IMG/VR virus record: IMGVR_UViG_3300028833_000003 | From: a virus | Length of the DNA stretch: 64,000 nucleotides | Reading direction: 5' to 3' (one strand) | Shown here: positions 4,743-23,390 of the stretch, in pieces | Layout of the letters: each line of letters begins with the position of its first letter | Position numbering within the stretch: the stretch's first letter is position 1 | Translations under genes and position numbers: made by a program | Notes under the pieces: model-generated | Databases searched by the model: none | What the model was told of the DNA's origin: nothing | The model's input: only the letters and a program-made list of their open reading frames with translations

Positions 4743-4814
4743 TTAAGGCTCACACAGCAAATTTTAATGCAATAGTATTGGTAAACTATAAGTGCAGGCG
4801 AGCCTTGTTTTTAT

Positions 4815-6019: not shown

Positions 6020-6136
6020 AAGACCTGTCAGCAATTATCTTTTTGCATTAGGAGCACGGGGTTCCAGGTTCGAATCCTGGGTCGGGGATTATTCCCCGGC
6101 TAGCTCAACTGGTAGAGCACGTTATTAGCGGGTCTT
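6020..6136 (+). ncRNA. Circularly permuted tRNA-like module (YrlA/Y-RNA-like candidate 1)
   Basis: Order of elements: closing helix AAGACC (6020-6025) with GGTCTT (6131-6136); T arm CCAGG-TTCGAAT-CCTGG (6064-6080); capped acceptor helix GTCGGGG (6081-6087), loop ATTATT, CCCCGGC (6094-6100); TA; D arm GCTC-AACTGGTA-GAGC (6103-6118). Confidence 0.5.
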
Positions 6137-7292: not shown

Positions 7293-7365
7293 GCTAGCGG
7301 TGAGGGCAATTGACGAATGGGGCTAGCGGAATCCGCACGCGACGTCGGTAAAAAAGCTCCTATAT

Positions 7366-7440: not shown

Positions 7441-7456
7441 ATTAAAGAGGGGAGCG

Positions 7457-8140: not shown

Positions 8141-8153
8141 TTAACCCACTTTA
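8132..8153 (+). terminator. Palindromic hairpin overlapping the stop codon
   Basis: GTGGGTTAA/TTAACCCAC followed by TTTAT. Confidence 0.45.
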
Positions 8154-8154
8154 T

Positions 8155-8229
8155 AGGGGAATGGTGTAATTGGCAGCATGTCGGTCTCCAAAACCGCTGG
8201 TCTAGGTTCGAGTCCTAGTTCCCCTGCCA
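8155..8229 (+). tRNA. tRNA-Trp(CCA)
   Basis: Acceptor AGGGGAA/TTCCCCT, anticodon loop CTCCAAA, T arm CTAGG-TTCGAGT-CCTAG, G73, CCA encoded. Confidence 0.9.
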
Positions 8230-8233
8230 TTAT

Positions 8234-8308
8234 GCGGGTATAGTTCAACGGATAGAATAACAGACTTCTAATCTGTACATCAGGGTTCAATTCCCTGTAC
8301 CCGTACCA
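8234..8308 (+). tRNA. tRNA-Arg(TCT)
   Basis: Acceptor GCGGGTA/TACCCGT, anticodon arm ACAGA-CTTCTAA-TCTGT, T arm CAGGG-TTCAATT-CCCTG, A73, CCA encoded. Confidence 0.9.
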
Positions 8309-8309
8309 G

Positions 8310-8338
8310 TTGATTTTTTTAAAAATTTTTGATATAAT
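8310..8338 (+). promoter_or_regulatory. Promoter cassette (TTGATT-N17-TGaTATAAT)
   Basis: -35 at 8310-8315 and -10 at 8333-8338. Class B leader ATATATGTAAGATAAAGAAAGG. Confidence 0.75.
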
Positions 8339-8375
8339 ATATATGTAAGATAAAGAAAGGAAGGGCAAACAGTAA

Positions 8376-8714
8376 ATGAAAATTACTCTGTTTGTGGATG
8401 ATGAACGCAGACCTCACAGAGAAGATGCGCATAGTTGGATACTTGTTAGAACTGGTAAGCTTGCAATTGATTTACTTGATGCTCTTCGTAAAATTAATTC
8501 TAAGAATGTTTTTGATATATATCTTGACCATGACCTTGGCTCTGGCATAAGCGGTTATGATGTAGCAAAATATATTGTAGATAACAATATCACAGAAGTG
8601 CAACATGTATATGTAATAAGTATGAATCCAGTTGGTGCGCAGAATATTTGTGATTTGCTTAATCATTACGGTTGGTCGGCAAAGCGAGTGGGGCTAGATG
8701 TTATTGGATTATAA
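8376..8714 (+). CDS. Receiver-like domain protein resembling the cyclic-phosphate-processing REC (cREC) domain of RNA-repair systems
   Basis: MKITLFVDDERRP...WILVRT...AIDLL......IYLDHDLG...SGYDVAKYIV......VYVISMNPVG..NI matches the remembered cREC pattern. No TAG. It runs directly into the suppressor tRNA. Confidence 0.55.
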   Translation: MKITLFVDDERRPHREDAHSWILVRTGKLAIDLLDALRKINSKNVFDIYLDHDLGSGISGYDVAKYIVDNNITEVQHVYVISMNPVGAQNICDLLNHYGWSAKRVGLDVIGL

Positions 8715-8807
8715 AGCCCCTTAGTTCAACGGTAGAACACCGGTCTCTAAAACCGTTATATCCCTCTGAAGGAGGTAGTCTGGGTTCGAATCCCAGAGGG
8801 GCCGCCA
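8715..8807 (+). tRNA. Amber-suppressor tRNA, anticodon CUA, with a long (23-nt) variable region
   Basis: Acceptor AGCCCCT/AGGGGCC (A1-C72 mismatch, then 6 bp), U8, D arm GTTC-AACGGTA-GAAC, anticodon stem CGGT/ACCG with loop CTCTAAA, variable region 8757-8779 with a CCTC/GAGG stem, T arm CTGGG-TTCGAAT-CCCAG, G73, CCA encoded. Confidence 0.8.
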
Positions 8808-8811
8808 ATCA

Positions 8812-8921
8812 TCGACACGTACAGCAAATATAAAGAGTAATCTTTATGTCATGGGTTCAACTCCCATCCTGCACACAGTGCATGTAGCTTAGTTGGTAGA
8901 GCGAAAGAATATAAGTGTCGA
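8812..8921 (+). ncRNA. Circularly permuted tRNA-like module (YrlA/Y-RNA-like candidate 2)
   Basis: Order of elements: closing helix TCGACAC (8812-8818) with GTGTCGA (8915-8921); hairpin ATAAAGA-GTAA-TCTTTAT; T arm ATGGG-TTCAACT-CCCAT (8851-8867); capped acceptor CCTGCAC (8868-8874), loop ACA, GTGCATG (8878-8884); TA; D arm GCTT-AGTTGGTA-GAGC (8887-8902). AAAGA (8904-8908) is complementary to TCTTT (8841-8845). Confidence 0.55.
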
Positions 8922-8932
8922 GTAAATTTTTA

Positions 8933-9025
8933 TAGACAGCATACTGCAATGAAATATTGGATAATATAACAGTTTTTATGCAACTATTATTAGAAGGTTC
9001 AAGTCCTTCGCTTATGCGCTGTCTA
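8933..9025 (+). ncRNA. Second structured module: bulged closing helix plus an orphan T arm
   Basis: TAGACAGCATA (8933-8943) pairs with TATGC-GC-GCTGTCTA (9013-9025) with a 2-nt bulge. T arm GAAGG-TTCAAGT-CCTTC lies at 8993-9009. There is an internal ATAATA/TATTAT hairpin. No D arm or anticodon arm is present. Confidence 0.4.
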
Positions 9026-9123
9026 GAATTTTATTAGGACATAATTAATCAACGCATTGTCCTTAAAATTGAATAAATATTAGGGTGTACATACCTAAAA
9101 TTTCCATGGAAAGGACGATGCTT

Positions 9124-9579
9124 ATGGCAGCTACAATTTTATTTACCAAGCCTGAAACTCAAGAGCTTGCTAATATATACCAAGAGTATGCGTTGCAAAA
9201 TGCTGAATTGGTAGCTAAGAAAGAACTTGCGTTGATTGGCATAGCCATTAACAATGCTGCGGCGAAAGGCGCCACTAGCATTAATTACAAGGCTTCAAAA
9301 GACTTTACTACTTTACAGGGTACTTATTATAATAAGGCTGTAGAGATTATGAACGCAGATTTCCAAAATGCTGGTTATTCTGCTGAAGCAACCACTGACC
9401 GCAATGGTTATGCAATTGCATTCTCTTTTGATTGGTCTGTAATTGATGGCGATGTTCCTGGTGGTAATACTAATCCATCTGCACCAGCAGCAGAGGAAAA
9501 TTGGGAAGAAATTCCTGATCCAGCCCCAGCAGACCCAGCAGAAGGAGAGCCAACCGAAACTCCAACAGATGGCGAGTAA
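9124..9579 (+). CDS. Hypothetical protein with a Pro/Glu/Ala-rich acidic tail
   Basis: Track ORF 9085..9579. In-frame ATGs lie at 9106, 9118 and 9124, and 9124 has the best spacing from GGAAAGGA. TAA stop. Confidence 0.55.
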   Translation: MAATILFTKPETQELANIYQEYALQNAELVAKKELALIGIAINNAAAKGATSINYKASKDFTTLQGTYYNKAVEIMNADFQNAGYSAEATTDRNGYAIAFSFDWSVIDGDVPGGNTNPSAPAAEENWEEIPDPAPADPAEGEPTETPTDGE

Positions 9580-9686
9580 TTGATTGATTAATGATAGGCT
9601 CCAACAGCAAGACAAGAAACACATTCATTTTTAACAAGAAAACGATAGGTGCTATAGGGAGCCTAGATTTTTATGAGGTATAAATA

Positions 9687-9839
9687 ATGATAACAGTAAG
9701 TTAGATTTTTGTTTTTCTTTTAATGTTTGATGCAGCCTGGGTATTCTATGGACTGCTACATAAAAAAAATATGTGGAAATGGATTTGTCTTTATTGGATA
9801 CTCCTCACATTAAAAAATGCAAGTGATCTAATTTTTTGA
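9687..9839 (+). CDS. Small single-pass membrane protein (one in-frame TAG at 9702)
   Basis: ATG lies 8 nt after GAGG. MITVS-TAG-IFVFLLMFDAAWVFYGLLHKKNMWKW... Ends in TGA at 9837. Confidence 0.35.
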
Positions 9840-9852
9840 GGAGATGAAAAAG

Positions 9853-10098
9853 ATGTATTCAAGAGCACACATTAGATGTAATGGCCCACAGGAAACTGCG
9901 CAATTAGTAAGTTTATTAAATACTGATGGTACAACCAATAAGTATATCTTAGAAACGGCAGATAGTGCTTATCGTGTAAATGCAAGAAGTTTCTTAGGTG
10001 CGGTATATTTTACTACTGAGCATGCTGATGATACTTGGTTAGTAAATACTGATAATGATGGTTGGTATCCTATTGGTATTGATAACTTCCGTATCTAA
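9853..10098 (+). CDS. Hypothetical protein (weak HPr-like resemblance, catalytic His absent)
   Basis: Track ORF 9844..10098. The second ATG (9853) lies 9 nt after GAGGAG. ...RVNARSFLGAVYF recalls the HPr ...KS.mg.m.L segment. Confidence 0.55.
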   Translation: MYSRAHIRCNGPQETAQLVSLLNTDGTTNKYILETADSAYRVNARSFLGAVYFTTEHADDTWLVNTDNDGWYPIGIDNFRI

Positions 10099-10121
10099 TT
10101 GGGACAAAATAGTCCCCATAA

Positions 10122-10198: not shown

Positions 10199-10202
10199 AT
10201 AT

Positions 10203-14986: not shown

Positions 14987-16519
14987 ATGAGTGAATTTCT
15001 TAACAGCTTAAAGGTTGCTACTAACATGACCCATACGACTAATGGCGCTCTTACCTATAAGTCTACGCTTAACAAGGTGTATGATTTGTTCGCTCAGGGT
15101 GCGGCTATGCGTAATGGCGATGAATCTATGTGTCGTTCTTTGTTTATGTCTGCATATCATGAAAATCCTACGCTGGCATTAAAGTGTCTGTTCTATTTGC
15201 GTGATATTCGTGGCGGTCAAGGCGAGCGGCGCTTCTTCCGCATTGCTATTCGTTCACTGGCTCAGAAGTATCAAAAGGAAATGTCTAATCTGGTAAAGTA
15301 TATTCCTGAATTTGGTCGGTGGGATGACCTATATACTCTTGTAGATACCCCTCTGGAAAATGAAGCATTTGCTTTTATGAAGAAGCAGATTATGCTGGAC
15401 TTGGACAGCAAGACCCCTTCTTTGCTTGCTAAGTGGCTGAAGTCTGAGAATACCTCTTCTCAGGAGTCTGTGCGCTTGGCAACTAAGACTCGTCTGGCTT
15501 TCGGTCTGTCTGCGCGGCGTTATCGTAAGATGCTGTCTCTGCTTCGTAATCGTATTAACATCGTTGAAACTCTGATGTCTCAGAACCGCTGGGACGAGAT
15601 TGAGTTTGATAAGCTGCCTTCTCGGGCTGGTATTATTTATAAGAATGCATTCGCACGCCATGACATTACTAAGGCTCGTTATGAAGCATTTATTAAGGAT
15701 GAGAACACTAAGGTCAATACCGGAACTCTTTATCCTTATGATGTTGTTCATGAAGTATCTAAGTTGTGGAAGGGTTGGTATAACTATAAGCTGACTAAGG
15801 ACGTCAATGACGTTGAACGTTTGGCCATCAATAAGTATTGGGATAATCTGACCGATTATTTCAATGGTGCAACTCTGAACGCGCTGGCTGTTGTAGATAC
15901 CTCCGGTTCTATGACTAGTGGGTCTGGAAATATTGCTCCTATTGATGTCGCTATCGCTCTCGGTATGTATTGCGCTGACCGTGCGCAGGGACCTTTCCAT
16001 AATCACTTTGTTTCTTTCAGCCGCCGTCCTGAGTTGATTGAAATTGAGGGTGTGGATTTCTGCGAGAAGGTAAGCAATATCTATCGTCAGAACCTGTGTG
16101 AGAATACCAACATCGAAGCTACCTTTGATTTGCTTCTTAACACTGCAAAGCGCGCTCATCTGCGTCAGGATCAGCTTCCTCAGTCTCTGATTATCATCAG
16201 CGATATGCAGTTTGACCGGGCAACTGGCCGCTACTGTAATGATGATGAAATGGATGCATGGGCTAACACTTTGTTTGAAACTATTAATCAGCGCTGGGAA
16301 AATGCCGGATATGAGATGCCTCATCTTATCTTCTGGAACGTAAATGCTGCTTCTGGTGGCGGAAACATTCCTATGCGCGACAGTGGAAATGTTACTTACG
16401 TCAGCGGTGCTTCTCCTGTTATTCTGGAACAGGTGCTTACGGGCAAGACTGGCCAGGATGTCATGCTGGACAAGCTGATGTCTGAACGCTACGCTGTTAT
16501 CAAGTCTATTACTGAGTAA
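14987..16519 (+). CDS. DUF2828/TROVE-like protein with a C-terminal vWA domain (Ro60-related candidate)
   Basis: N-terminus T.NGALTY.ST.N...DLF......R........LF..AY.ENP.LALKCLFYLRDIRGGQGERR.F matches the remembered DUF2828 pattern. VDTSGSM is a vWA MIDAS-type motif. No TAG. AAG/CGT/CTG codon regime. Confidence 0.7.
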   Translation: MSEFLNSLKVATNMTHTTNGALTYKSTLNKVYDLFAQGAAMRNGDESMCRSLFMSAYHENPTLALKCLFYLRDIRGGQGERRFFRIAIRSLAQKYQKEMSNLVKYIPEFGRWDDLYTLVDTPLENEAFAFMKKQIMLDLDSKTPSLLAKWLKSENTSSQESVRLATKTRLAFGLSARRYRKMLSLLRNRINIVETLMSQNRWDEIEFDKLPSRAGIIYKNAFARHDITKARYEAFIKDENTKVNTGTLYPYDVVHEVSKLWKGWYNYKLTKDVNDVERLAINKYWDNLTDYFNGATLNALAVVDTSGSMTSGSGNIAPIDVAIALGMYCADRAQGPFHNHFVSFSRRPELIEIEGVDFCEKVSNIYRQNLCENTNIEATFDLLLNTAKRAHLRQDQLPQSLIIISDMQFDRATGRYCNDDEMDAWANTLFETINQRWENAGYEMPHLIFWNVNAASGGGNIPMRDSGNVTYVSGASPVILEQVLTGKTGQDVMLDKLMSERYAVIKSITE

Positions 16520-16598: not shown

Positions 16599-16805
16599 AT
16601 GAAAGAGTTTGAATTTTTGCCAAAGCAAATTTTCCTTGAATGGTATGAAACAAATCGTATTAAACCTGGTAAATATTATTGGGTTGTAGAAGAAGAAGAT
16701 GGGTGGCAACGTCAATTGCGTTATCCCATTATGAATTATCGTCCAGATTTGGCAGCGGCTGCCACGAATCCTCAATATATAGGAGTGAATTATTATGCTC
16801 TTTAA
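16599..16805 (+). CDS. Hypothetical protein
   Basis: ATG lies 8 nt after AAGGAAGG and is internal to track ORF 16590. TAA stop. Confidence 0.5.
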   Translation: MKEFEFLPKQIFLEWYETNRIKPGKYYWVVEEEDGWQRQLRYPIMNYRPDLAAAATNPQYIGVNYYAL

Positions 16806-17598
16806 TAAAACGCAGGAACAAAAACAGAAAATTCTTGACAAGGTTCAAAATCATCATTATTTCGTCGAAAATTATTTGCCAGATGAAGTAATTTTTACAG
16901 CACTAATTGGTAGTCAAAATTATAATTTAGATACTGAGAATAGTGATATTGACACTATTACATTTATTTTGCCGTCTTTATCTTCCTTTTATACAACAGA
17001 ACAATTAATTTCAAAAGAATATGAACTTGAAGATGGCAAAGCAGTAATTAAAGATATTCGTTTATTTTTTAAGCTTTTGCGCAAAAGTTCGCCCAATAGT
17101 ATTGAATGGATTTGCAGCCATTATATGTATATTAATCCAACATATGAAACTGTTATTGAGCGGATGCGCAATGATTGCAATCTATTAAGCAGCTGCGATA
17201 TACTCAATATGCTACATGCAATTGCTGGCACCGCAACACAGTTACATGGTAGAAATATGACTATTGGTAAGCGTTTCTCACATGTTTTACGTTTAGATGA
17301 TATGATGTACACTTATACAGTTAATTTTGAAAATGGCGATTTCTTAGCGCTGCGGCCTGGCGATATGCGCATGGCATTAGATGCAAAAACTGGTCATTGT
17401 AATTTAACTGATGATGAAATCAAAAGTGAATGTGATAAATTAACCACAAAGATTAATCAAGAAGTTACTGATTATCATTTAACTTCTATCGACATTAATC
17501 GCATGGCGCTTGCGCGAGCACTTTTAAAATTTCATGAAAGACGCTTATTTGAGACTTACTTGCATACCCAGGGATTTGAAAAAATTAAAAAAATTTGA
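16795..17598 (+). CDS. RlaP-like (RNA-ligase-associated Pol-beta-fold) nucleotidyltransferase
   Basis: ALIGSQNYNLDTENSDIDTITF is the GS..Y......SD.D nucleotidyltransferase signature. It overlaps the upstream gene by 11 nt and follows GGAG. No TAG. Confidence 0.65.
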   Translation: MLFNKTQEQKQKILDKVQNHHYFVENYLPDEVIFTALIGSQNYNLDTENSDIDTITFILPSLSSFYTTEQLISKEYELEDGKAVIKDIRLFFKLLRKSSPNSIEWICSHYMYINPTYETVIERMRNDCNLLSSCDILNMLHAIAGTATQLHGRNMTIGKRFSHVLRLDDMMYTYTVNFENGDFLALRPGDMRMALDAKTGHCNLTDDEIKSECDKLTTKINQEVTDYHLTSIDINRMALARALLKFHERRLFETYLHTQGFEKIKKI

Positions 17599-17604
17599 TA
17601 TAAT
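17576..17604 (+). promoter_or_regulatory. Promoter cassette (TTGAAA-N17-TGaTATAAT) embedded in the 3' end of the preceding gene
   Basis: -35 at 17576-17581 and -10 at 17599-17604. Leader ATATATAGAAAGTGAGGGA. Confidence 0.7.
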
Positions 17605-17630
17605 ATATATAGAAAGTGAGGGATTAAGTG

Positions 17631-17918
17631 ATGGCTATGAAGGTTTGGTTTGAAGATGCTAATGGCAATGAGCGGATTATTAAAAATACTGCTTTGACCT
17701 GGGCAGAGGTTGATCAAGCTATCAATGAATTTATTCGGCGATGCAATATCAATAAGATAAACCAAGCTAAGCGGTTGTATGGCGACCAGTATGATGAGTC
17801 TAAGGTTAATCTCTTCAAACGGTATTATACTCGGGTATGGAAGCAAGAGGATGGCCGAACCAAGATTGACGTAGGTTCTCATAGTGAGTTCTTCTTATGG
17901 GAGGGAACGTATGAGTAA
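17631..17918 (+). CDS. Hypothetical protein
   Basis: ATG lies 7 nt after GAGGGA. Track ORF 17628..17918. Confidence 0.5.
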   Translation: MAMKVWFEDANGNERIIKNTALTWAEVDQAINEFIRRCNINKINQAKRLYGDQYDESKVNLFKRYYTRVWKQEDGRTKIDVGSHSEFFLWEGTYE

Positions 17919-18435
17919 AAGTTGGTTTTTGCATGAAATTGATTATAGTCGTATTCCTCCAAGAGATAATGGCTATTGGGAAATTCGTGGCAATAAGCCT
18001 CAACCTAACACAATCATTCAAGTATATAACATGATGGGCGGTCATCATGATTATAAAGTTACTGAATTGGATGAATTTATTTACTCTGATTGGGAGACAG
18101 TAGGACGTCGTAGATATACAGAAAATCAGAAATCAGATTATGGATGGATTGATTTAGAAGGTAATTTTTATGGTTGTGATTGGGCCGAACATAGAGATTG
18201 CGCATATATATGTTTTGGCCTAACTGAGTTAGATGCTGAACGCCAAGGCTATGTAAAAATTTATTATGATAAATCTAATGCCAAATATGATAATTATCAT
18301 TACCGTCCTGATGGTTTAGGCTGGTACTGCGATCGTCCCTTAACTGATGCGCAGATAGCTAAATTAAATGAACGAGGTTTCTCTGCCAACAGAGAAAGAG
18401 AGGATTTGTTATATGACGACGGATATGATGATTAA
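17911..18435 (+). CDS. Hypothetical protein
   Basis: ATG follows GGGAGGGAACGT and is internal to track ORF 17884. It overlaps the upstream stop. Confidence 0.55.
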   Translation: MSKSWFLHEIDYSRIPPRDNGYWEIRGNKPQPNTIIQVYNMMGGHHDYKVTELDEFIYSDWETVGRRRYTENQKSDYGWIDLEGNFYGCDWAEHRDCAYICFGLTELDAERQGYVKIYYDKSNAKYDNYHYRPDGLGWYCDRPLTDAQIAKLNERGFSANREREDLLYDDGYDD

Positions 18436-18604
18436 ACGAATTAATGAATTAGAAAGCACTGTACAAAGGTATGAAGCAGAAAATTTCGCATTGCGTGTGG
18501 AGCTTAATAGGCTTCGAGATGAATCAGCAACAATACAACAGCAAGCCGAATTTGGCAAAGCAACTGAAACTTTTATTAAAGAAATCAAAAGGATTATGAG
18601 GTGA
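18413..18604 (+). CDS. Small coiled-coil protein
   Basis: ATG lies 9 nt after GAGAGGA and is internal to track ORF 18368. TGA stop lies 4 nt before the ligase start. Confidence 0.45.
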   Translation: MTTDMMIKRINELESTVQRYEAENFALRVELNRLRDESATIQQQAEFGKATETFIKEIKRIMR

Positions 18605-18608
18605 GATT

Positions 18609-20012
18609 ATGGCATATTGTGGATATGTAGTTAAGGTAGAACATCTTCGTAAGCATACCAATGCGGACCGTCTGCAAATTGCTACTTTTTTTGGTAATGA
18701 TACTATTGTTGGTATGAACACTCAGTACGGTGATATTGGTGTTTATTTCCCTGTTGATGGTCAGTTATCTGAGCGCTTTTGTGAGGTAAATGACCTTGTG
18801 CGCCGCAAGGATGAAAACGGTAAGCAGGTTGGCGGTTATCTTGACCCTGATAAGCGTAACATAAAGGCCTTGAAGCTGCGTGGTGAAAAGTCTGATGGTC
18901 TTTATCTGCCTATTACTTGTTTAGCTGACTTCTGCAAGATTTCTGATTTGAAGGTTGGTGACACTATTGATACTGTCAATGGTGAGCTGATTTGCCAGAA
19001 GTACATTCCTCATTCTAATGCTCGCACTCATGCTGGCGGTGCGAAGGGTGTAAAGAAGGTCAAGGCCAACATCGCACCTACTTTCTATGAACATGTTGAT
19101 ACTGCTCAGTTGGCTTATAACCTCAACGCTTTTAAGCCTGGTGATACTGTTCAGCTGACCTTGAAGATGCATGGCACTTCTGGTCGTACTGGGTATCTAC
19201 CTCTGGTACATGTAAAGCAAACTTGGTTTGATAAGTTGTTCCATCGTCCTGGCAAGGAATATAAGGAGTATGGTTATATTACTGGCACTCGTCGTGTAGT
19301 CCTGGATGGGAAGCGCACTGGTGGTTTCTATGACTCTGATGATTTCCGTGAAGCTATGGCTGCCAAGTTCGATGGTAAGCTCCGTAAGGGCGAAGTTGCC
19401 TATTATGAAATCGTTGGATTCCAGGGACCTAATGGTGCTCCTATTATGAGCCAGGTTCAGAACTCTAAGGTAAAGGACCCTGAATTTACTAAGCAGTATG
19501 GTTCAGTAACTACTTTCTCTTATGGTTGTGAGCAAGATGGTGGCTATGAAGCTAAGAGCATCCTTGATCCTGGCGTAGAATTTAACAAGGCTCCTTGCTG
19601 TGAAGTGTATGTCTATCGTATGACTATGGTCAATGAAGATGGTGATGTAGTAGAATATTCTCCTGCTCAGATTAAGGAGCGTTGTGAGCAGATGGGTATT
19701 CATACTGTAATGGAATTTGAAACCTTCATAATTCCTGATATGATTCAGCTACCTGACGATGTTGGGTCTTTACAGGCGGTCGATGCTGGCGAATATGTTC
19801 TTCGTAAGGTTGAGCAGTATTTCGATGGTCCTGACCCTATCGGTAAGACCCATGTGCGCGAAGGAGTAGTTGCTCGTATCCTTAACCGTACTAACTTCGC
19901 AGTTTATAAGCACAAGAACTTCTCTTTCAAGGTGTTGGAAGGCATTGCCAAGGATGAAGCTACCGCGCCTGACATTGAAGAGGCTCAGGAAATAATGGAA
20001 GATGGAGTTTAA
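18609..20012 (+). CDS. RNA ligase (Rnl2/Rnl5-like nucleotidyltransferase) with an N-terminal tRNA-binding-type OB domain
   Basis: N-terminus VVKVEHLRKHTNADRLQI resembles the hPNADkL tRNA-binding OB motif. TLKMHGTSG fits the ligase motif I (K.HG). No TAG. All ten Lys codons in the first ~100 codons are AAG. Confidence 0.7.
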   Translation: MAYCGYVVKVEHLRKHTNADRLQIATFFGNDTIVGMNTQYGDIGVYFPVDGQLSERFCEVNDLVRRKDENGKQVGGYLDPDKRNIKALKLRGEKSDGLYLPITCLADFCKISDLKVGDTIDTVNGELICQKYIPHSNARTHAGGAKGVKKVKANIAPTFYEHVDTAQLAYNLNAFKPGDTVQLTLKMHGTSGRTGYLPLVHVKQTWFDKLFHRPGKEYKEYGYITGTRRVVLDGKRTGGFYDSDDFREAMAAKFDGKLRKGEVAYYEIVGFQGPNGAPIMSQVQNSKVKDPEFTKQYGSVTTFSYGCEQDGGYEAKSILDPGVEFNKAPCCEVYVYRMTMVNEDGDVVEYSPAQIKERCEQMGIHTVMEFETFIIPDMIQLPDDVGSLQAVDAGEYVLRKVEQYFDGPDPIGKTHVREGVVARILNRTNFAVYKHKNFSFKVLEGIAKDEATAPDIEEAQEIMEDGV

Positions 20013-20015
20013 TTT

Positions 20016-20339
20016 ATGAATAGAGAACAATATAGACGTTGGGCTAAAACTAATAAAAAACATTTTACAGACACTTGTCCTTATTGCAAACGTGATACTC
20101 GTTTTATCTTCGCTGAGGATGTACCTGGCGAAGTAACTGTAAAATGTGCTGTATGTGATGCGGTTGTTAATTCAGAACCTGAACTTAAAGAATTTGGCGT
20201 GAAGGGCGTGTATATGCCCTTCCCGCTTCGCACACTGGAAGCAATTATTCTATCTGCGAGGATGCAAAAGCAAAAAGAACAAGAGCAGAAGGAGAAAATG
20301 CTGAAAGATGAAATATCTGATAGTGCTCGGATATCGTGA
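20016..20339 (+). CDS. Zinc-ribbon protein with a Lys/Glu-rich tail
   Basis: Track ORF. CPYC...CAVC. Confidence 0.5.
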   Translation: MNREQYRRWAKTNKKHFTDTCPYCKRDTRFIFAEDVPGEVTVKCAVCDAVVNSEPELKEFGVKGVYMPFPLRTLEAIILSARMQKQKEQEQKEKMLKDEISDSARIS

Positions 20340-20637
20340 CTCAAATACGCATAAAACAACTTATACTAATGGTTTTTGTAAAGAGATGCTCGATGGTAAT
20401 GCGGCTAGAATACTCGCGCGTCAGAAAGAAATTGAATATCTGCGCTCATTAAATGTATGGAAACGAGTTGTAGAAAATGCACCTACTTTAGAAGCTGCCG
20501 CAGAAACTTTTAAAGATATGATAGCTTATATGGTATGCTGGCTACATAATTACGTCAATTTACCAGTTGTGCAAGTGTTACCATGGGAAATTATTTATCA
20601 AGAGTATATATTCTATAAGGAGGAGTATCATGACTAA
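20308..20637 (+). CDS. Hypothetical protein
   Basis: Track ORF. It overlaps the upstream gene. Confidence 0.5.
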   Translation: MKYLIVLGYRDSNTHKTTYTNGFCKEMLDGNAARILARQKEIEYLRSLNVWKRVVENAPTLEAAAETFKDMIAYMVCWLHNYVNLPVVQVLPWEIIYQEYIFYKEEYHD

Positions 20638-20755
20638 GGAACAGAAAGTCGAGCAGCTTCAAGCGCGTAAAAAGAGGATCCTGTCGCGTGGTTATTATAA
20701 TATGAGAATTGCGAATAAAATTGATCGCAAAATTAGGAGGATTCAAAATGGATGA
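20630..20755 (+). CDS. Small basic protein
   Basis: ATG lies 6 nt after AAGGAGGAG and is internal to track ORF 20567. Confidence 0.4.
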   Translation: MTKEQKVEQLQARKKRILSRGYYNMRIANKIDRKIRRIQNG

Positions 20756-20957
20756 ATTTTTTAAAGTAATTGGAGTATTAGTGCTACTTGCGCTTCTTAT
20801 CTTCCTCGGTCCGCTCGTTGTGATGATTGGTTGGAATTGTGCGCGAGAAGCATGGCCAATGCTTCCAGTACTGTCTTATTGGCAGGTATTTTGGATGACA
20901 AATGGTTTGAGCCTGATTTTTAAAACAACCACAACTGGTCGCTACAAAAATGATTAA
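20748..20957 (+). CDS. Two-pass membrane protein
   Basis: ATG lies 7 nt after AGGAGGA and is internal to track ORF 20709. Two hydrophobic segments. Confidence 0.5.
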   Translation: MDEFFKVIGVLVLLALLIFLGPLVVMIGWNCAREAWPMLPVLSYWQVFWMTNGLSLIFKTTTTGRYKND

Positions 20958-20960
20958 TTA

Positions 20961-20989
20961 ATCAAGGGATTTACTCCCTTGATTTTTTT
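20961..20989 (+). terminator. Rho-independent terminator
   Basis: ATCAAGGGA-TTTAC-TCCCTTGAT followed by a T-run. Confidence 0.9.
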
Positions 20990-21007
20990 ATAATTTTTTG
21001 ATATAAT
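20979..21007 (+). promoter_or_regulatory. Promoter cassette (TTGATT-N17-TGaTATAAT)
   Basis: -35 at 20979-20984 and -10 at 21002-21007. Leader ATATATAGAAAGCGAGGGAAG. Confidence 0.75.
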
Positions 21008-21032
21008 ATATATAGAAAGCGAGGGAAGAAGT

Positions 21033-21773
21033 ATGAACTACTATGCAATGGGTGACATTCATGGCCGTGCAGATTTGTTCTGGAATGCAGTAGAATTTAT
21101 GAGTCATGATGCTGCGCCAGGTAAGTGGCATTGTTATTTTCTTGGCGATGCCTGTGACCGTGGCCCTGATGGTTGGGAACTCATTAAAATCCTATTGGAC
21201 AATCCTAACCTATTTACATATCTCTTGGGCAATCATGAAGATATGTTACTCAAAGCAATTGCATCATTAAAATCAGTAGCGCGATTTCATAATCTAGACA
21301 TCACTGATTATGATGCAATAAGAGAGAATACTTATTCTCAAAACGTGGCACTTTGTGATTATAATGGCGGCGACCCAACTATGAGAGCGGCGCTGAAAGA
21401 CCCAAAGCTCAATGAATATGTTTTAAAGCTAAGACAGCTTCCACTTACTGCATCTCATGGAGTAATTGATATGTGCCATGCCGGTTGTACCATTGGCGAT
21501 TGGGAGCGGTTAAAGGACGTTCGCAATGATGAGGCTATTGACATCTTCTGCTGGGACCGTGAGCATTTTGGGGCACCCTGGTATGAAAATCGTATTTTGC
21601 TTCATGGCCATACTCCAATAGTTAGCAGCCATTTTAGACCTTGGAAAGATTATGGCCCATATAAGACTGGCGAAAAAGTAAATCTTGATGCTGGCGCAGT
21701 TTGGACCAATGAACTTTATCTTTATGATTTTCAACAGCAAGATGTTGTAGTAATTCACGCTATTGAAAATTAA
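21033..21773 (+). CDS. Lambda-type Ser/Thr protein phosphatase (metallophosphoesterase)
   Basis: GDIHG ... GDACDRGPDG ... GNHE ... GHTP motifs in canonical order. Confidence 0.8.
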   Translation: MNYYAMGDIHGRADLFWNAVEFMSHDAAPGKWHCYFLGDACDRGPDGWELIKILLDNPNLFTYLLGNHEDMLLKAIASLKSVARFHNLDITDYDAIRENTYSQNVALCDYNGGDPTMRAALKDPKLNEYVLKLRQLPLTASHGVIDMCHAGCTIGDWERLKDVRNDEAIDIFCWDREHFGAPWYENRILLHGHTPIVSSHFRPWKDYGPYKTGEKVNLDAGAVWTNELYLYDFQQQDVVVIHAIEN

Positions 21774-21791
21774 TAAAAAATTTGGTATAAT
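21763..21791 (+). promoter_or_regulatory. Promoter cassette (TTGAAA-N17-TGgTATAAT)
   Basis: -35 at 21763-21768 (inside the stop region of the previous gene) and -10 at 21786-21791. Class B leader. Confidence 0.7.
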
Positions 21792-21826
21792 ATATATGTA
21801 AGATAAAGAAAGGGGTTTGGTAAGAA

Positions 21827-22036
21827 ATGAAAGATACTTGCTATTGTATTTATCGTCATGATGACCCTGACAATCCATTCTTTTTTGAAGATGCTGATTC
21901 TGCAATGTTCGTAATGAAGTACATTAATCCTGAGTACCGTGATAGATATAAGGTTGAAAAGTGTATGTCTCCGTTTATGGACCCTTGCGAAGCGATTGAT
22001 AGAATTAACATGTTTGAAAATAAATATGGAGAGTGA
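21827..22036 (+). CDS. Hypothetical protein
   Basis: Track ORF. ATG follows AAAGGGG. Confidence 0.5.
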   Translation: MKDTCYCIYRHDDPDNPFFFEDADSAMFVMKYINPEYRDRYKVEKCMSPFMDPCEAIDRINMFENKYGE

Positions 22037-22041
22037 GATAT

Positions 22042-22308
22042 ATGGCACGTGGAGTTAATGCTTTTGAATCTCATGACTTTTATTGTATGTGCTGCGGCAA
22101 TAAAGGTATTCCGCTATCACGACAGGTTGGCAAAAACCGCGGCGCGCAACATCGCAAACTTCTATATTGTATCTACTGTCAAAAGCGCGTAAATCATATC
22201 GAATGTCGTAATGAGCAAGAAGTCAAAGCGTTCAAGGAGGATTTTGAAAATGGACTCTATCTTGATGAAGCAGTCGCAGAACTTAACTATGCAGATGCCC
22301 ATGCGTAA
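22042..22308 (+). CDS. Zinc-ribbon protein
   Basis: ATG lies about 11 nt after GGAGAG and is internal to track ORF 22033. CMCCG...CIYC. Confidence 0.5.
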   Translation: MARGVNAFESHDFYCMCCGNKGIPLSRQVGKNRGAQHRKLLYCIYCQKRVNHIECRNEQEVKAFKEDFENGLYLDEAVAELNYADAHA

Positions 22309-22792
22309 GCCTATTCTATACATTATGTGCGGCATTCCTGGTAGCGGTAAATCTACCCTCGCTGAGAAGCTGATGCGCGACAAGGCTGATGAAGATATTC
22401 GATATGTTTCTCGTGATGAAATTCGGTTCCATTTACTTAAAGAAGGAGAAGATTACTTCTCTCATGAAGATGAAGTATATGATCGTTTTGTTGGAACCAT
22501 TGCTAATACCCTGATTGATGGATTTGATGTCATTGCAGACGCAACTCACTGCAATCATGGCTCTCGGGCGAAGCTGTATAATTATCTGCGACTGTGGCAT
22601 ATGCCGCCCGAAGATTATGATGTTGTGTTTATCCAGATGACTACTTCTTTTGAAGAGTGCATGAAGCGTAATGATTTGCGCGAAGGTGTGACTCATGTGC
22701 CAAAGTCTGTTATGAAGCGCATGTGGGCGCAGAGCACTTATCCTACTAAGCATGAATTCTCTAATGTTAAGGACGTGATCTATCATGAGTGA
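22301..22792 (+). CDS. P-loop kinase (polynucleotide-kinase-like, AAA_33 type)
   Basis: MRKPILYIMCGIPGSGKSTLA contains the Walker A motif. The start is chosen at ATGCGTAA, which overlaps the upstream stop; in-frame ATGs also lie at 22289 and 22295. It overlaps the next gene by 8 nt. Confidence 0.65.
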   Translation: MRKPILYIMCGIPGSGKSTLAEKLMRDKADEDIRYVSRDEIRFHLLKEGEDYFSHEDEVYDRFVGTIANTLIDGFDVIADATHCNHGSRAKLYNYLRLWHMPPEDYDVVFIQMTTSFEECMKRNDLREGVTHVPKSVMKRMWAQSTYPTKHEFSNVKDVIYHE

Positions 22793-23390
22793 AATTTTTT
22801 TCACTTCTGACACTCACTTCTGCCACGAACAAGATTTTCTTTATGCACCACGCGGATGCTCATCTACTGAGGAAATGACAGAAAAGATTGTAAATCGTTG
22901 GAATGAAGTTGTAGGAAAAAATGATATTGTTTATCATCTCGGTGATGTGCTGATGGGACATTATGATGTTAATATCCTATCCAGACTCAATGGTTCGATT
23001 AAATTAATTAGAGGCAATCATGACACCGATAAGAAATTGCGCGACATCTACGCGATTGGTAAATTGGCTACTGATAATATACTTACTAGCGAACTTATAA
23101 AGTTCGGCAAACTTTCGCTATTCTTGTGCCACTATCCAGTCCTTACTGCCAATTTCGATGATAGGCATTTCAGTCAGCACGTGATTTCCCTGCATGGGCA
23201 CACACATCAATCAAAGAACTGGTTATTCCCCTCTAACCCGTTCATATATCATGTGGGCCTTGATTCACACGATTGTTATCCGGTTCATATTGAAACCATC
23301 ATTCAAGACATTAAGAACCGATGGAATGAATTGGGTACAATCAACGGCATACACCCTCTCGTCTCTGTAATGCCGGAATATCCCCTGTAA
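22785..23390 (+). CDS. Calcineurin-like metallophosphoesterase (candidate 2',3'-phosphate end-healing partner of the kinase)
   Basis: SDTHF.H ... GD ... GNHD ... HGH motifs. It is translationally coupled to the kinase. Confidence 0.75.
   Translation: MSEIFFTSDTHFCHEQDFLYAPRGCSSTEEMTEKIVNRWNEVVGKNDIVYHLGDVLMGHYDVNILSRLNGSIKLIRGNHDTDKKLRDIYAIGKLATDNILTSELIKFGKLSLFLCHYPVLTANFDDRHFSQHVISLHGHTHQSKNWLFPSNPFIYHVGLDSHDCYPVHIETIIQDIKNRWNELGTINGIHPLVSVMPEYPL

What the first reader, a model, noticed from the sequence alone, without database searches (positions are those of the whole stretch)
8812..9025. Second permuted tRNA-like module, plus an adjacent bulged-helix/T-arm module, directly after the suppressor tRNA
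Seen in sequence, for module 8812-8921:
- Closing helix TCGACAC/GTGTCGA.
- T arm ATGGG-TTCAACT-CCCAT.
- Capped acceptor CCTGCAC, loop ACA, GTGCATG (6 of 7 pairs).
- D arm GCTT-AGTTGGTA-GAGC.
- AAAGA (8904-8908) can pair with TCTTT (8841-8845) as an anticodon-stem equivalent. It competes with a local ATAAAGA-GTAA-TCTTTAT hairpin.

The next element (8933-9025) has an 11-bp closing helix with a 2-nt bulge and an orphan T arm.

Two independent loci, this one and 6020-6136, share the same unusual element order. That argues against chance.

Established knowledge: as I recall, Salmonella carries two adjacent Y RNAs (YrlA and YrlB) next to rsr and rtcBA.

Inference: this may be a tandem pair of Y-like RNAs.
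Basis: partly seen in the sequence, partly recalled or inferred. Interest (0 to 1): 0.8.

Follow-up and report, generated by a model that had tools for sequence, protein, structure and literature searches.

The report
Phage Y-like RNAs that mimic tRNA
Two neighbouring small RNA genes in a phage's tRNA cluster belong to a large family of tRNA-mimicking RNAs, not separately represented in Rfam 15, that sits next to a phage version of the Ro60 RNA-surveillance protein, much as bacterial Y RNAs sit next to Ro60.

Summary
Window 8812-8921 (M2) has a closing helix, T arm, loop-capped acceptor, D arm and 5-bp anticodon-stem equivalent. Window 8933-9025 (E2) has a closing helix and a T arm.

Both belong to a large phage RNA family. 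Its hallmark is a 7-10 bp closing helix with base NAGR/YCUN-G, followed by an AC(A/U)GCAA motif. The helix encloses variable tRNA parts.

- Covariation: 92-93% of cells pair, against about 40% in slid controls.
- The window holds three more copies: 4745-4806, 6020-6136 and 9595-9665.
- The RNAs lie upstream of, and on the strand of, gene 14987-16519 (Pfam DUF2828+DUF7788). Its AlphaFold model matches Ro60/Rsr over its full length.
- In 80 loci fetched by that protein alone, I found 250 modules on its strand against 26 opposite. 204 lie upstream against 5 downstream.
- Unannotated copies occur in Felix O1-like, P100-like, Tsamsa-like and mycobacterial phages.

The Y-RNA reading is supported. 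However, the RNAs fail Rfam YrlA membership: 32 bits against a cut-off of 69, and no GNCGAA motif. I file them as a new variant of the Ro60/Y-RNA kind. Protein binding and function are inferred, not shown.

The parts
8812..8921 (+). M2: complete scaffolded, circularly permuted tRNA-like RNA (closing helix to closing helix); trailing GU at 8922-8923
   Evidence: Sequence. Own covariance model R1 scores 89.8 bits, but M2 is in the training set. Rfam YrlA 32.4 bits. Own scanner.
8812..8818 (+). M2 closing helix, 5' strand TCGACAC; pairs with 8915-8921 GTGTCGA
   Evidence: The family helix has 7 of 7 pairs with compensatory changes and 96% of cells paired.
8821..8827 (+). M2 ACAGCAA motif, 2 nt after the closing helix. 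This is the family hallmark and the proposed protein-recognition element.
   Evidence: Present, as AC(A/U)GCAA, in nearly all R1 matches from loci fetched by the protein alone. Because R1 encodes the motif, this is not an independent estimate of its conservation.
8841..8850 (+). M2 anticodon-stem equivalent, 3' strand TCTTT (tRNA positions 39-43), plus the 5-nt variable loop ATGTC (44-48; C48)
   Evidence: Pairs with AAAGA 8904-8908. In the family, the two inner pairs are 100% and 92% paired with 5-6 pair types. Positions 15 and 48 (Levitt pair) covary.
8851..8867 (+). M2 T arm ATGGG-TTCAACT-CCCAT
   Evidence: Compensatory ATAGG/CCTAT change in L131. The three free T-stem pairs are 100% paired in the family.
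8868..8884 (+). M2 loop-capped acceptor stem CCTGCAC-ACA-GTGCATG
   Evidence: All 8 family helix pairs show compensatory changes.
8885..8908 (+). M2 U8-A9, D arm GCTT-AGTTGGTA-GAGC (8887-8902), G26, and the anticodon-stem 5' strand AAAGA (8904-8908)
   Evidence: The D stem covaries in hits from protein-anchored loci.
8915..8921 (+). M2 closing helix, 3' strand GTGTCGA, followed by the conserved G (8922)
   Evidence: The following G was required by my scanner; the T/A after it (62%/30%) was not.
8933..9025 (+). E2: scaffolded tRNA-like RNA in standard order. Parts: closing helix TAGACAGC 8933-8940 / GCTGTCTA 9018-9025; ACTGCAA 8943-8949; UUGGAUAAU 8957-8965; anticodon-arm-like hairpin ACAGTT-TTTATGC-AACTAT 8969-8987; T arm 8993-9009; linker 9010-9017.
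   Evidence: 29 distinct short modules with a T arm close to the 3' strand of the closing helix, including E2 and near-identical copies. 17 were aligned as A4. Pair counts on A4: 92.8% paired against 32-50% slid; 15 of 18 pairs compensatory.
6020..6136 (+). M1: sister permuted tRNA-like module directly after tRNA-Ala
   Evidence: R1 88.5 bits, in the training set. Rfam YrlA 35.7 bits. Fold z -4.0. Has A15/U48 where M2 has G15/C48.
4745..4806 (+). Short scaffold module between two tRNA-Leu genes: AAGGCTC/GAGCCTT helix, ACAGCAA, one D-arm-like hairpin
   Evidence: R1 25.8 bits. Sequence. Scanner.
9595..9665 (+). Short scaffold module: TAGGCTCC/GGAGCCTA helix, ACAGCAA, no tRNA arms
   Evidence: Scanner. 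Fold z -3.9.
14987..16519 (+). Ro60-like protein gene (Pfam DUF2828 + DUF7788); proposed protein partner
   Evidence: Pfam E 5e-27 and 2e-41. AlphaFold2 mean pLDDT 79. Foldseek top 10 hits are Ro60/TROVE/Rsr. Homologues are annotated 'Ro-like RNA binding protein' in mycobacteriophages.
8376..8807 (+). Upstream context, possibly the same transcription unit: cREC_REC gene 8376-8714 and suppressor tRNA(CTA) 8715-8807. A promoter-like site lies at 8310-8338.
16795..23390 (+). RNA-repair cassette next to the Ro60-like gene: RlaP nucleotidyltransferase 16795-17598, RNA ligase 18609-20012, AAA_33 kinase 22211-22792, metallophosphoesterase 22785-23390
   Evidence: Pfam: AAA_33 (66 bits), Metallophos_2 (39 bits) and RlaP (27.3 vs cut-off 23) pass; the ligase assignment rests on two hits below Pfam's cut-off (PHA02142 OB fold 22.1 and RNA_ligase 16.8, cut-off 27). 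Same gene order in L245 and L248, where both ligase families are listed unmarked and RlaP as weak.

Best explanation
M2 and E2 are two small non-coding RNAs of the Y-RNA kind. They are transcribed with the phage's tRNA array and cut out of it.

Each closes on itself through a conserved basal stem. The stem is 5'-N-A-G-R-C... paired with ...G-Y-C-U-N, followed by G. An AC(A/U)GCAA stretch lies just inside it. This stem-plus-motif is the common handle of the family.

By analogy with the Ro60-binding stem of Y RNAs, I propose it is the docking site for the phage's Ro60-like ring protein (14987-16519).

The variable part held by the handle imitates tRNA:
- In M2 it is a whole tRNA body whose anticodon loop is replaced by the handle and whose acceptor end is capped. 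This is the YrlA-type circular permutation.
- In E2 it is a reduced tRNA in normal order: D-loop remnant, anticodon-like arm and T arm.

The tRNA-like elbow would tether the Ro60-like particle to tRNA-handling enzymes. Candidates are the neighbouring repair enzymes (RlaP, RNA ligase, kinase/phosphatases) or host exoribonucleases such as PNPase. Alternatively it would gate the protein's cavity. Either way this would serve tRNA or RNA quality control and counter-defence during infection.

Shown: the structures, their conservation and covariation, and the positional and strand linkage to the Ro60-like gene.

Inferred: processing into discrete RNAs in this phage, binding to the protein, and the downstream function.
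For: Structure:
- On a MAFFT alignment not fitted to the structure (60 family members), 92.7% of cells pair against 35-42% when partners are slid. The covariation score is 0.83 against 0.11-0.16.
- The three free T-stem pairs and the two inner anticodon-stem pairs were not used in selecting the sequences. They are 100%, 100%, 100%, 100% and 92% paired, with 4-6 pair types each.
- In 63 distinct hits from loci fetched through the protein only, all 29 pairs show compensatory changes. 92.3% pair against 39-44% slid.
- The tertiary Levitt pair covaries: G15-C48 60, A15-U48 25, G-U 8, A-C 14 (Fisher p 3e-8, sequences not independent).
- M2 shows a compensatory T-stem change in a near-identical relative.
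- E2 subtype: 92.8% paired; 15 of 18 pairs compensatory.

Linkage to the protein:
- The protein's fold matches Ro60/Rsr over its full length.
- In 80 protein-anchored viral loci, all 73 R1 matches are on the protein's strand.
- My scanner finds 250 modules on that strand against 26 on the other. 207 of the 250 have the NAGR helix base, against 2 of 26 (both AAGA) on the other strand.
- 204 of 209 lie upstream against 5 downstream, with about equal DNA on each side.
- 66 of 80 loci carry at least one module. Among 120 control phage tRNA-array loci, 15 do.

Cultured phages:
- Modules lie 69-332 nt upstream of the Ro-like gene in Listeria phage VAfA18.
- They lie directly downstream of it in Mycobacterium phage DyoEdafos.
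- They lie in the tRNA arrays next to it in Bacillus phage MrDarsey and E. coli phage dune.

Literature:
- YrlA/YrlB architecture and the shared precursor (PMC4201824).
- Two Y-like RNAs upstream of a phage Ro60 bind it and PNPase (PMC12135203).
- Highly transcribed regions (tiny ORFs CKA15_059-061 and two unannotated regions near tRNA genes) within 2 kb upstream of the Ro-like gene of Listeria phage CKA15 (PMC12282133).
- The Ro60-like gp130 of Felix O1-like Bas63 counters the Ppl defence (PMC11482910).
Against: - No binding or expression data exist for this phage.
- Rfam YrlA scores are far below the gathering cut-off. The GNCGAAN0-1G motif thought to contact Ro60 is absent, so the proposed docking site rests on analogy only.
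- The Ro60-like gene lies 6 kb from M2/E2, with protein genes in between. In Felix O1-like phages the RNAs lie downstream of it.
- The similarity to Ro60 is structural only: 12-14% identity, TM about 0.5, rmsd 8 A. phmmer against PDB found nothing.
- The RNAs also co-occur with tRNA arrays and repair genes, so the true partner could be another product of the same region.
- The minimum-free-energy fold of M2 prefers a local hairpin over the anticodon-stem equivalent.
- The inner fold of E2 is uncertain. MAFFT places E2 one column out of register in the anticodon-like arm.
- I did not verify that the highly transcribed regions reported in CKA15 coincide with the modules. The strongest one (CKA15_059-061) is not a module.
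Confidence: 0.68

Rival explanations
1. Stand-alone decoys or adaptors for tRNA-targeting factors. The modules display tRNA bodies or anticodon arms to soak up, or be sensed by, host anticodon nucleases, tRNA-modifying enzymes or defence systems. The conserved stem only stabilises them and defines their ends; no Ro60-like partner is needed.
For: - Inserts include anticodon-arm-like hairpins with 7-nt loops such as CUGUAAA, CUGCUAA and CUUUUAA, and nearly complete tRNAs. ARAGORN calls a tRNA in 9 of 181 modules.
- M2-type modules lack exactly the anticodon loop that such nucleases cut.
- The surroundings are a tRNA array plus an RNA-repair cassette.
- Phage RNA repair is understood as a response to host attack on tRNAs (PMC7824862).
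Against: - This does not explain the strict strand and position linkage to the Ro60-like gene.
- It does not explain why a sequence-conserved handle (NAGRC/ACAGCAA) is kept on inserts of every kind, including 104 distinct modules with no tRNA arm.
- It is not exclusive of the main explanation. A Ro60-like particle could carry the decoy.
Confidence: 0.14
2. Processing or stability cassettes of the tRNA-array transcript. The leader-trailer helix plus motif is a cleavage or protection signal, for instance for an RNase III-like or phage endonuclease. It excises or stabilises whatever lies inside, and the inserts have no common function.
For: - Modules sit in the array like tRNA units. M2 starts 5 nt after the suppressor tRNA and M1 2 nt after tRNA-Ala.
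- The conserved bases lie at the foot of the helix and just outside it, where cuts would fall.
- A few modules enclose full tRNA-like sequences.
Against: - Only 13 of 64 tRNA-rich control loci have them, so they are not a general feature of phage tRNA arrays.
- In the window only 5 modules sit among 25 tRNAs, and none of the 25 tRNAs is enclosed by one.
- The inserts are themselves conserved and covary as tRNA-like folds, including a tertiary pair.
- In DyoEdafos and the Listeria phage the modules lie next to the Ro-like gene, with no adjoining tRNA genes in DyoEdafos and the nearest tRNA over 1 kb away in VAfA18.
Confidence: 0.08
3. Circularly permuted tRNA genes. The transcript is circularised (the phage encodes an RNA ligase) and re-opened in the acceptor cap to give a working tRNA, as in the red alga Cyanidioschyzon merolae.
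For: - The order of parts (3' half, cap, 5' half) is that of permuted tRNA genes.
- An RNA ligase gene is nearby.
- M. smegmatis YrlA is cut by RNase P in its 7-bp acceptor stem and receives CCA (PMC4201824).
Against: - No anticodon loop can be formed. Between tRNA positions 31 and 39 lie 6 + 7 + 7 + 22 nt of linker, closing helix and ACAGCAA region, whose lengths vary widely in the family.
- The closing helix has no bulge-helix-bulge form.
- Cap loops are 3-8 nt, with no conserved CCA or discriminator.
- This does not apply to E2 or to the armless modules that share the same handle.
Confidence: 0.03
4. No function: decayed tRNA genes or a chance juxtaposition of tRNA halves in a tRNA-rich region.
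For: - The region is packed with tRNA genes.
- Tandem tRNAs do give weak hits to both YrlA and my model, at or below 31 bits.
Against: - ARAGORN and Rfam call no tRNA overlapping M2 or E2.
- There are hundreds of homologues with compensatory changes in every helix.
- The non-tRNA motif is conserved.
- The strand and position bias relative to one gene is strong.
Confidence: 0.02

Closest known systems
YrlA (Y RNA-like A; Rfam RF02553) of Salmonella, Mycobacterium and many Ro60-encoding bacteria
   Same: - A small RNA closed by a 5'/3' stem.
- A tRNA-like domain in the permuted order: variable region, T arm, loop-capped acceptor stem, D arm, opening at the anticodon-stem position.
- Levitt 15-48 covariation.
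- Encoded near, and co-oriented with, a Ro60-type gene, often with a second smaller Y RNA beside it (PMC4201824).
- The core of M2 and M1 aligns to the Rfam model.
   Different: - Scores are 32-36 bits against a gathering cut-off of 69. The best family members in 7 other loci are not called at the gathering threshold. The DyoEdafos member scores 20 bits.
- The 5' motif is AC(A/U)GCAA after a NAGRC helix, not GNCGAAN0-1G.
- The acceptor stem is usually 7-8 bp.
- The partner gene is Pfam DUF2828/DUF7788, not TROVE.
- The family is essentially viral: 28 hits across 185,579 species genomes, mostly in MAG contigs.
- There are several copies per genome, with many kinds of insert.
YrlB / Yrn2 (second, smaller Y RNAs next to YrlA)
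   Same: E2 follows M2 by 11 nt on the same strand, as YrlB follows YrlA from one precursor in M. smegmatis. M. smegmatis YrlB also has a possible T arm. It shares the protein-binding motif with its larger neighbour (PMC4201824).
   Different: E2 belongs to a conserved subtype with a D-loop-like UUGGAUAA motif, an anticodon-arm-like hairpin and a T arm in standard tRNA order. It is not a long hairpin with a pyrimidine-rich loop. No sequence similarity was tested or expected.
Yrl1/Yrl2 with phiRo60 of Thermus phage phiLo; Y RNAs of mycobacteriophages, CcrColossus and Bacillus phage G
   Same: This is the phage-encoded Ro60 plus Y-like RNA arrangement, with two RNAs upstream of the gene. In phiLo, binding to the protein and to host PNPase was shown (PMC12135203).
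   Different: Those use canonical Ro60 and a CGAA motif in an internal bulge. No tRNA-like domain is reported for phiLo Yrl1/2 in the passages I read. Here the protein is only a structural relative, and the RNAs carry a different motif.
Metazoan and Deinococcus Y RNAs
   Same: Modular plan: a conserved basal stem bound by Ro60, plus a variable upper module that recruits other factors. Several paralogous Y RNAs occur per genome.
   Different: No sequence relation. The metazoan bulged GGUCCGA helix is absent. These phage RNAs sit inside tRNA operons.
Circularly permuted tRNA genes (Cyanidioschyzon merolae) and two-piece/permuted tmRNA
   Same: The 3' half of a tRNA-like body precedes the 5' half in the gene.
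   Different: No anticodon loop, no bulge-helix-bulge motif and no conserved CCA. Rfam tmRNA_permuted gives only 19 bits near M1, and ARAGORN finds no tmRNA.

Membership tests
YrlA (Rfam RF02553) | Score at or above the curated gathering cut-off (69 bits) | tested here: not met
   M2 scores 32.4 bits and M1 35.7 bits. No gathering-threshold hit in 7 loci holding the best family members. The DyoEdafos member scores 20.1 bits.
YrlA (Chen et al. 2014, PMC4201824) | tRNA-like domain in the order T arm, capped acceptor stem-loop, D arm, closed by pairing of the flanks | tested here: met
   M2 8841-8908. Covariation in all five helices. 15-48 tertiary covariation.
YrlA (Chen et al. 2014) | GNCGAAN0-1G motif near the 5' end (presumed Ro60 contact) | tested here: not met
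   A regex search of all five window modules finds none. The only CGAA instances lie in the D-stem/T-loop region. AC(A/U)GCAA occupies the corresponding place.
YrlA (Chen et al. 2014) | Encoded within 4 kb of a Ro60 (TROVE) orthologue, on the same strand | tested here: inconclusive
   Same strand: yes. The distance is 6.0 kb for M2/E2. The gene is a structural Ro60 relative with no Pfam TROVE hit at E 0.01. Across 80 loci, 204 of 209 modules lie upstream and on the same strand, and 62 lie within 2 kb.
Y RNA (functional class) | Bound by a Ro60-family protein in vivo, and dependent on it for stability | not testable with these tools
   Needs immunoprecipitation or a knockout. Only genomic linkage is available.
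Y RNA (functional class) | Small (80-130 nt) RNA with a long terminal stem formed by the 5' and 3' ends and a large internal loop or module | tested here: met
   M2 is 110 nt and E2 93 nt. The closing helices covary. The true ends have not been mapped.
tRNA (RF00005 / ARAGORN) | Cloverleaf with an open acceptor stem and an anticodon loop, scoring above cut-off | tested here: not met
   No ARAGORN call in 8808-9025. The Rfam tRNA model gives 18.9 bits (cut-off 29), and only by joining the 5' half of M2 to the T arm of E2.
Circularly permuted tRNA gene | After joining the ends, a 7-nt anticodon loop and bulge-helix-bulge processing sites | tested here: not met
   42 nt of helix and motif lie between tRNA positions 31 and 39. 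Lengths vary across the family. Cap loops lack CCA.
Phage scaffold RNA family defined here (model R1 and scanner) | 7-10 bp closing helix with NAGR base, 0-3 nt, C(A/U)GCAA, insert, 3' strand followed by G; same strand as a DUF2828-type gene | tested here: met
   M2, E2, M1, 4745-4806 and 9595-9665 all pass. M2's helix base is UCGA/UCGA, a compensated variant of UAGA/UCUA.

The most novel reading that the evidence does not exclude
The handle (NAGRC helix plus ACAGCAA) is a universal adaptor. Through it, a virion-carried Ro60-like protein displays a whole wardrobe of interchangeable tRNA parts:
- anticodon-less permuted tRNA bodies (M2, M1);
- reduced standard-order tRNAs with anticodon arms (E2);
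- bare anticodon or D-arm hairpins.

Together they would form an RNA-based counter-defence system. It would bait, block or sense host tRNA-directed nucleases and defence proteins such as Ppl, and feed damaged tRNAs to the neighbouring repair enzymes. This would be a new functional class of phage ribonucleoprotein, not merely a phage copy of bacterial Ro60/Y RNA.
Probability: 0.22. Interest if true: 0.88.

Novelty: new variant of a known kind. Interest (0 to 1): 0.72.

Why it matters
Ro60 and Y RNAs are conserved from bacteria to humans, but what the tRNA-like part of bacterial Y RNAs does is still unknown.

This work defines a large, easily recognised RNA family. It accompanies a Ro60-like protein found in 702 records of cultured phages in GenBank (INPHARED). 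These include Felix O1-like, P100/A511-like, Tsamsa-like, Vibrio, Campylobacter, Staphylococcus and mycobacterial phages.

In these phages the RNAs are unannotated, and some relatives are miscalled as tRNAs.

Two recent papers guessed that such phages might have Y RNAs but could not point to them (PMC12282133, PMC11482910). A concrete motif and structure makes that guess testable in tractable systems. In one of them, Bas63, the protein already has a phenotype: it counters the Ppl defence.

The family's modularity means one handle carries many tRNA-derived inserts. This offers a natural experiment on what tRNA mimicry contributes to Ro60 particles. It also gives a way to clean up tRNA annotation in phage genomes.

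Tried and rejected
- GenBank phages, blastn with the region: only tRNA-level matches and no close relative.
- phmmer of the protein against PDB: nothing. Structure prediction was needed.
- cREC-protein-anchored viral loci: only 33-41% relatives, too far for direct alignment of M2/E2. Two of them do keep a module just after the cREC gene.
- First DNA pattern, T loop to D arm: mostly tandem tRNAs. Adding CAGCAA made it specific.
- R1 does not detect E2 (13 bits), because E2 lacks the capped acceptor and D arm. E2 was placed by the handle scanner and its own alignment instead.
- The tRNA-model hit 8880-9018, which joins M2's 5' half to E2's T arm (18.9 bits), was rejected. Only a 4-bp acceptor forms, it scores below cut-off, and each half is accounted for by its own covarying module.
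- Burroughs & Aravind 2016 (RNA-repair systems, Rot/TROVE and tRNA-like partners) could not be read. The supplement of Chen 2014 is not held. I therefore cannot exclude that part of this family was noted there.
- The tRNA region (88-112 kb of 155.6 kb) of Bixzunavirus mycobacteriophage Erdmann has no Ro-like gene; not followed further.
- I first thought the hugely transcribed CKA15_059-061 region of Listeria phage cka15 might be the modules. It is not; it has no handle motif.
- Terminator scan after E2: none found.
Full report
**What is in the sequence.**

The window is a 38% G+C phage segment. It has 25 tRNA genes on the + strand between 646 and 10630, including a suppressor tRNA(CTA) at 8715-8807. 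In-frame TAG codons occur in many genes, so TAG is probably read as sense in part of the genome.

- M2 has a 7-bp closing helix (8812-8818 / 8915-8921), a T arm (8851-8867) and a loop-capped 7-position acceptor stem (8868-8884, 6 pairs).
- M2 also has a D arm (8887-8902) and a 5-bp pairing AAAGA/TCTTT (8904-8908 / 8841-8845). That pairing lies exactly where tRNA positions 27-31 and 39-43 fall, with a 5-nt variable loop before the T stem.
- E2 has an 8-bp closing helix (8933-8940 / 9018-9025) and a T arm (8993-9009).

Single-sequence folds are better than shuffles: z -3.2, -3.4 and, for the sister module M1 at 6020-6136, -4.0.

ARAGORN and Rfam call no tRNA in 8808-9025. No ORF of 70 codons or more overlaps the stretch, even with TAG read as sense.

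**Closest catalogued RNA.**

With permissive thresholds, the only Rfam family these regions resemble is YrlA (RF02553), the tRNA-like Y RNA of bacteria.
- M2 scores 32.4 bits and M1 35.7 bits, against a curated cut-off of 69.
- The alignment covers the T arm, capped acceptor, D arm and the anticodon-stem equivalent. It does not cover the outer stem.

**Relatives and the family.**

Four contigs with an identical upstream cREC protein carry M2 and E2 nearly unchanged. One of them (L131) changes the M2 T stem from ATGGG/CCCAT to ATAGG/CCTAT, a compensatory change.

A pattern scan of viral contigs for T loop, short spacer and D arm gave mostly tandem tRNAs. It also gave several modules with the same architecture and, unexpectedly, the same non-tRNA motif. 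That motif is (A/U)CAGCAA, lying just inside a closing helix whose sequence differs from phage to phage.

- Of 101 distinct sequences, 74 have both a capped acceptor and a closing helix of 7 bp or more ending 0-3 nt before CAGCAA.
- Sixty non-redundant members, including M2 and M1, were aligned with MAFFT (A2).
- On this alignment, which was not fitted to any structure, 92.7% of cells pair against 35-42% when partners are slid by 1-3 columns. The covariation score is 0.83 against 0.11-0.16.
- The acceptor and closing helices were used to select sequences, so their pairing is partly built in.
- The three free T-stem pairs and the anticodon-stem pairs were not used in selection. The T-stem pairs are 100% paired with 4-6 pair types. 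The two inner anticodon-stem pairs are 100% and 92% paired.
- The tertiary Levitt pair also covaries: G15 with C48, A15 with U48. M2 has G15/C48 and M1 has A15/U48.

The anticodon-stem reading of AAAGA/TCTTT is therefore right. The competing local hairpin is not the conserved fold.

**The protein partner.**

Six kilobases downstream on the same strand lies a 510-residue gene (14987-16519) with Pfam DUF2828 and DUF7788. Sequence search against PDB finds nothing.

An AlphaFold2 model built from 40 homologues (mean pLDDT 79) gives Ro60, TROVE and Rsr structures as its ten best Foldseek matches. These align over the full length, with E 5e-8 to 2e-4 and TM about 0.5. Generic vWA domains follow.

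The neighbouring genes are, by Pfam, an RlaP nucleotidyltransferase, an RNA ligase with a PHA02142 OB fold (both ligase families score below Pfam's cut-off in the window protein), an AAA_33 kinase and metallophosphoesterases. The gene just before the suppressor tRNA is a cREC 'cyclic-phosphate processing' receiver. This is the RNA-repair gene set described for large phages (PMC7824862), and its gene order recurs in two related contigs.

Homologues of the protein are found in 702 records of cultured phages. In mycobacteriophages they are annotated 'Ro-like RNA binding protein'.

**Linkage test, independent of the RNA pattern.**

I fetched 80 viral loci through the protein alone, with 10 kb on each side. 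I searched them with a covariance model (R1) built from A2.
- All 73 matches with E at or below 1e-4 are on the protein's strand.
- Their alignment shows compensatory changes in all 29 pairs, with 92.3% pairing against about 40% slid.
- A simple scanner for the handle alone was also run. It looks for a helix of 7 bp or more, 0-3 nt, C(A/U)GCAA, an insert, and a 3' strand followed by G.
- The scanner finds 250 modules on the protein's strand and 26 on the other, with similar numbers of the bare hexamer on each strand.
- 207 of the 250 have a helix base NAGR. The 26 on the other strand do not.
- 66 of 80 loci have at least one module; some have eight.
- 204 of 209 NAGR modules lie upstream of the gene and 5 downstream, with about 600 kb of DNA on each side. 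Density rises towards the gene.
- In 120 control phage loci chosen only for tandem tRNAs (935 tRNAs), 15 have such modules.
- A scan of one genome per prokaryotic species gave only 28 matches, mostly gut and rumen MAG contigs.

The family is therefore essentially viral. It is tied to the Ro60-like gene rather than to tRNA arrays as such.

**What E2 is.**

E2 is not recognised by R1, because it lacks the capped acceptor and the D arm. It does have the handle, with ACUGCAA. That variant also occurs in bona fide tRNA-like members.

The scanner found 29 distinct short modules with a T arm close to the 3' strand of the closing helix. Seventeen were aligned (A4).
- RNAalifold recovers the closing helix and the T arm.
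- With an added anticodon-arm-like helix, 92.8% of cells pair against 32-50% slid. 15 of 18 pairs show compensatory changes.

These RNAs read, in order:
1. handle;
2. a UUGGAUAA / UGGUUAA motif resembling a D loop;
3. a hairpin with a 7-nt loop such as CUGUAAA;
4. T arm;
5. about 8 nt;
6. handle.

This is a reduced tRNA in normal order. In E2 the corresponding parts are 8957-8965, 8969-8987 (loop UUUAUGC) and 8993-9009.

A permuted tRNA-like member followed at once by an E2-type member recurs in L138 and L081. The pairing in the window is therefore a conserved arrangement.

**More copies, and cultured phages.**

The window holds five modules:
- 4745-4806 (D-arm-like hairpin only);
- M1;
- M2;
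- E2;
- 9595-9665 (no tRNA arm).

Among 176 distinct modules from the protein-anchored loci, 22 have T and D arms, 39 a T arm only, 11 a D-like arm only and 104 neither. Nine of 181 modules (176 from protein-anchored loci plus the window's five) contain something ARAGORN calls a tRNA.

Unannotated modules occur in cultured phages:
- Bacillus phage MrDarsey: five, just upstream of its DUF2828 gene.
- E. coli Felix O1-like phage dune: in the tRNA array just downstream of its 'vWFA' gene.
- Mycobacterium phage DyoEdafos: a short one and a tRNA-like one directly after the 'Ro-like RNA binding protein' gene (R1 65.5 bits).
- Listeria P100-like phages: three in tandem, 69-332 nt before the 'putative ribonucleoprotein' gene. 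These are 92-100% conserved in 54 Listeria phage records and annotated in one record only (three hypothetical proteins in WIL-1); seven further records carry no annotation at all.

Rfam's YrlA does not reach its threshold on any of these.

**Literature.**

- Chen et al. 2014 (PMC4201824) define YrlA by the GNCGAAN0-1G motif, the T / acceptor stem-loop / D order, the Levitt covariation and proximity to Ro60. They note a second Y RNA (YrlB), with a possible T arm, made from the same precursor.
- A phage Ro60 with two upstream Y-like RNAs that bind it and host PNPase has been characterised (PMC12135203).
- For DUF2828-type proteins I found only guesses. In Listeria phage CKA15, highly transcribed regions within 2 kb upstream of the Rsr-like, virion-associated CKA15_055 'may be Y RNAs' (PMC12282133).
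- In Bas63, the Ro60-like gp130 counters the Ppl defence and 'some tRNA genes are possibly Y RNAs' (PMC11482910).
- I could not read Burroughs & Aravind 2016, which may touch on this.
- I did not verify that the CKA15 regions coincide with the modules. The most abundant one (CKA15_059-061) is not a module.

**Verdict.**

Membership in curated YrlA fails on score and on the defining 5' motif. I therefore file the RNAs as a new variant of the Ro60/Y-RNA kind. They form a phage family with its own handle and with interchangeable tRNA-derived inserts.

Binding to the Ro60-like protein, processing and biological role are inferences. The decoy, processing-signal and permuted-tRNA alternatives are less likely, for the reasons given under each.

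Noticed in passing
window 4745-4806 and 9595-9665 (+): Two further short RNAs with the same handle (AAGGCTC/GAGCCTT and TAGGCTCC/GGAGCCTA helices, ACAGCAA, trailing G). The first lies between two tRNA-Leu genes and has only a D-arm-like hairpin. The second lies after ORF 9085-9579 and has no tRNA arm (z -3.9).
   Followed up: partly
window 3028-13607 and 53765-63756; tRNA 8715-8807: In-frame TAG codons are frequent: up to 15 in the 1986-codon ORF 57796-63756 on the - strand. They are nearly absent (0-1 per ORF, with isolated exceptions) from the large genes between 14987 and 46936. A tRNA(CTA) with a long variable arm sits just before M2. This fits stop-codon recoding of a subset of genes (probably late ones).
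   Followed up: partly
window 6875-6968 (+): Directly after tRNA-Phe lies a 94-nt stretch GGGAGUC...GACACUCCC-ACCA. It has an acceptor-like terminal stem ending in CCA but no T arm or handle motif (z -2.0). Its nature is unknown.
   Followed up: partly
L324 3151-3758: A ROOL RNA (RF03087, 340.8 bits) sits inside the tRNA/scaffold-RNA array upstream of a Ro60-like gene in a related viral contig.
   Followed up: no
L362 (Listeria phage cka15, OR088597.1) 1340-1700 vs 2501-2783: The tiny 'ORFs' CKA15_059-061 are reported to take up to 67% of phage transcripts. They form a structured region behind a strong promoter but carry no handle motif. The three handle RNAs lie in the unannotated gap right before the Ro-like gene CKA15_055. 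A second abundant ncRNA may exist there.
   Followed up: partly
L245 5679-5768; L268 6414-6485; L249 7635-7747: Some standard-order scaffold modules are called as tRNA genes by ARAGORN or Rfam (tRNA-Ile(aat), tRNA-Phe(gaa), tRNA-Ile(gat)). tRNA counts in such phages may therefore be inflated by Y-like RNAs.
   Followed up: partly
window 8310-8353 and about 21830-21860: A promoter-like TTGATT-17-TATAAT with an extended -10 lies at 8310-8338. It is followed by ATATATGTAAGATAAAGAAAGG before the cREC gene. The string recurs almost verbatim upstream of the ORF starting near 21870. It may be a phage promoter/leader consensus.
   Followed up: no
window 3028-3828: A PhoH-like ATPase gene by eye (GSGKT Walker A motif; not scanned against Pfam) precedes the tRNA/scaffold array and the Ro60-like gene. 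Bacillus phage MrDarsey shows the same order: PhoH-like, tRNA array, DUF2828 gene. This suggests an old conserved block.
   Followed up: no
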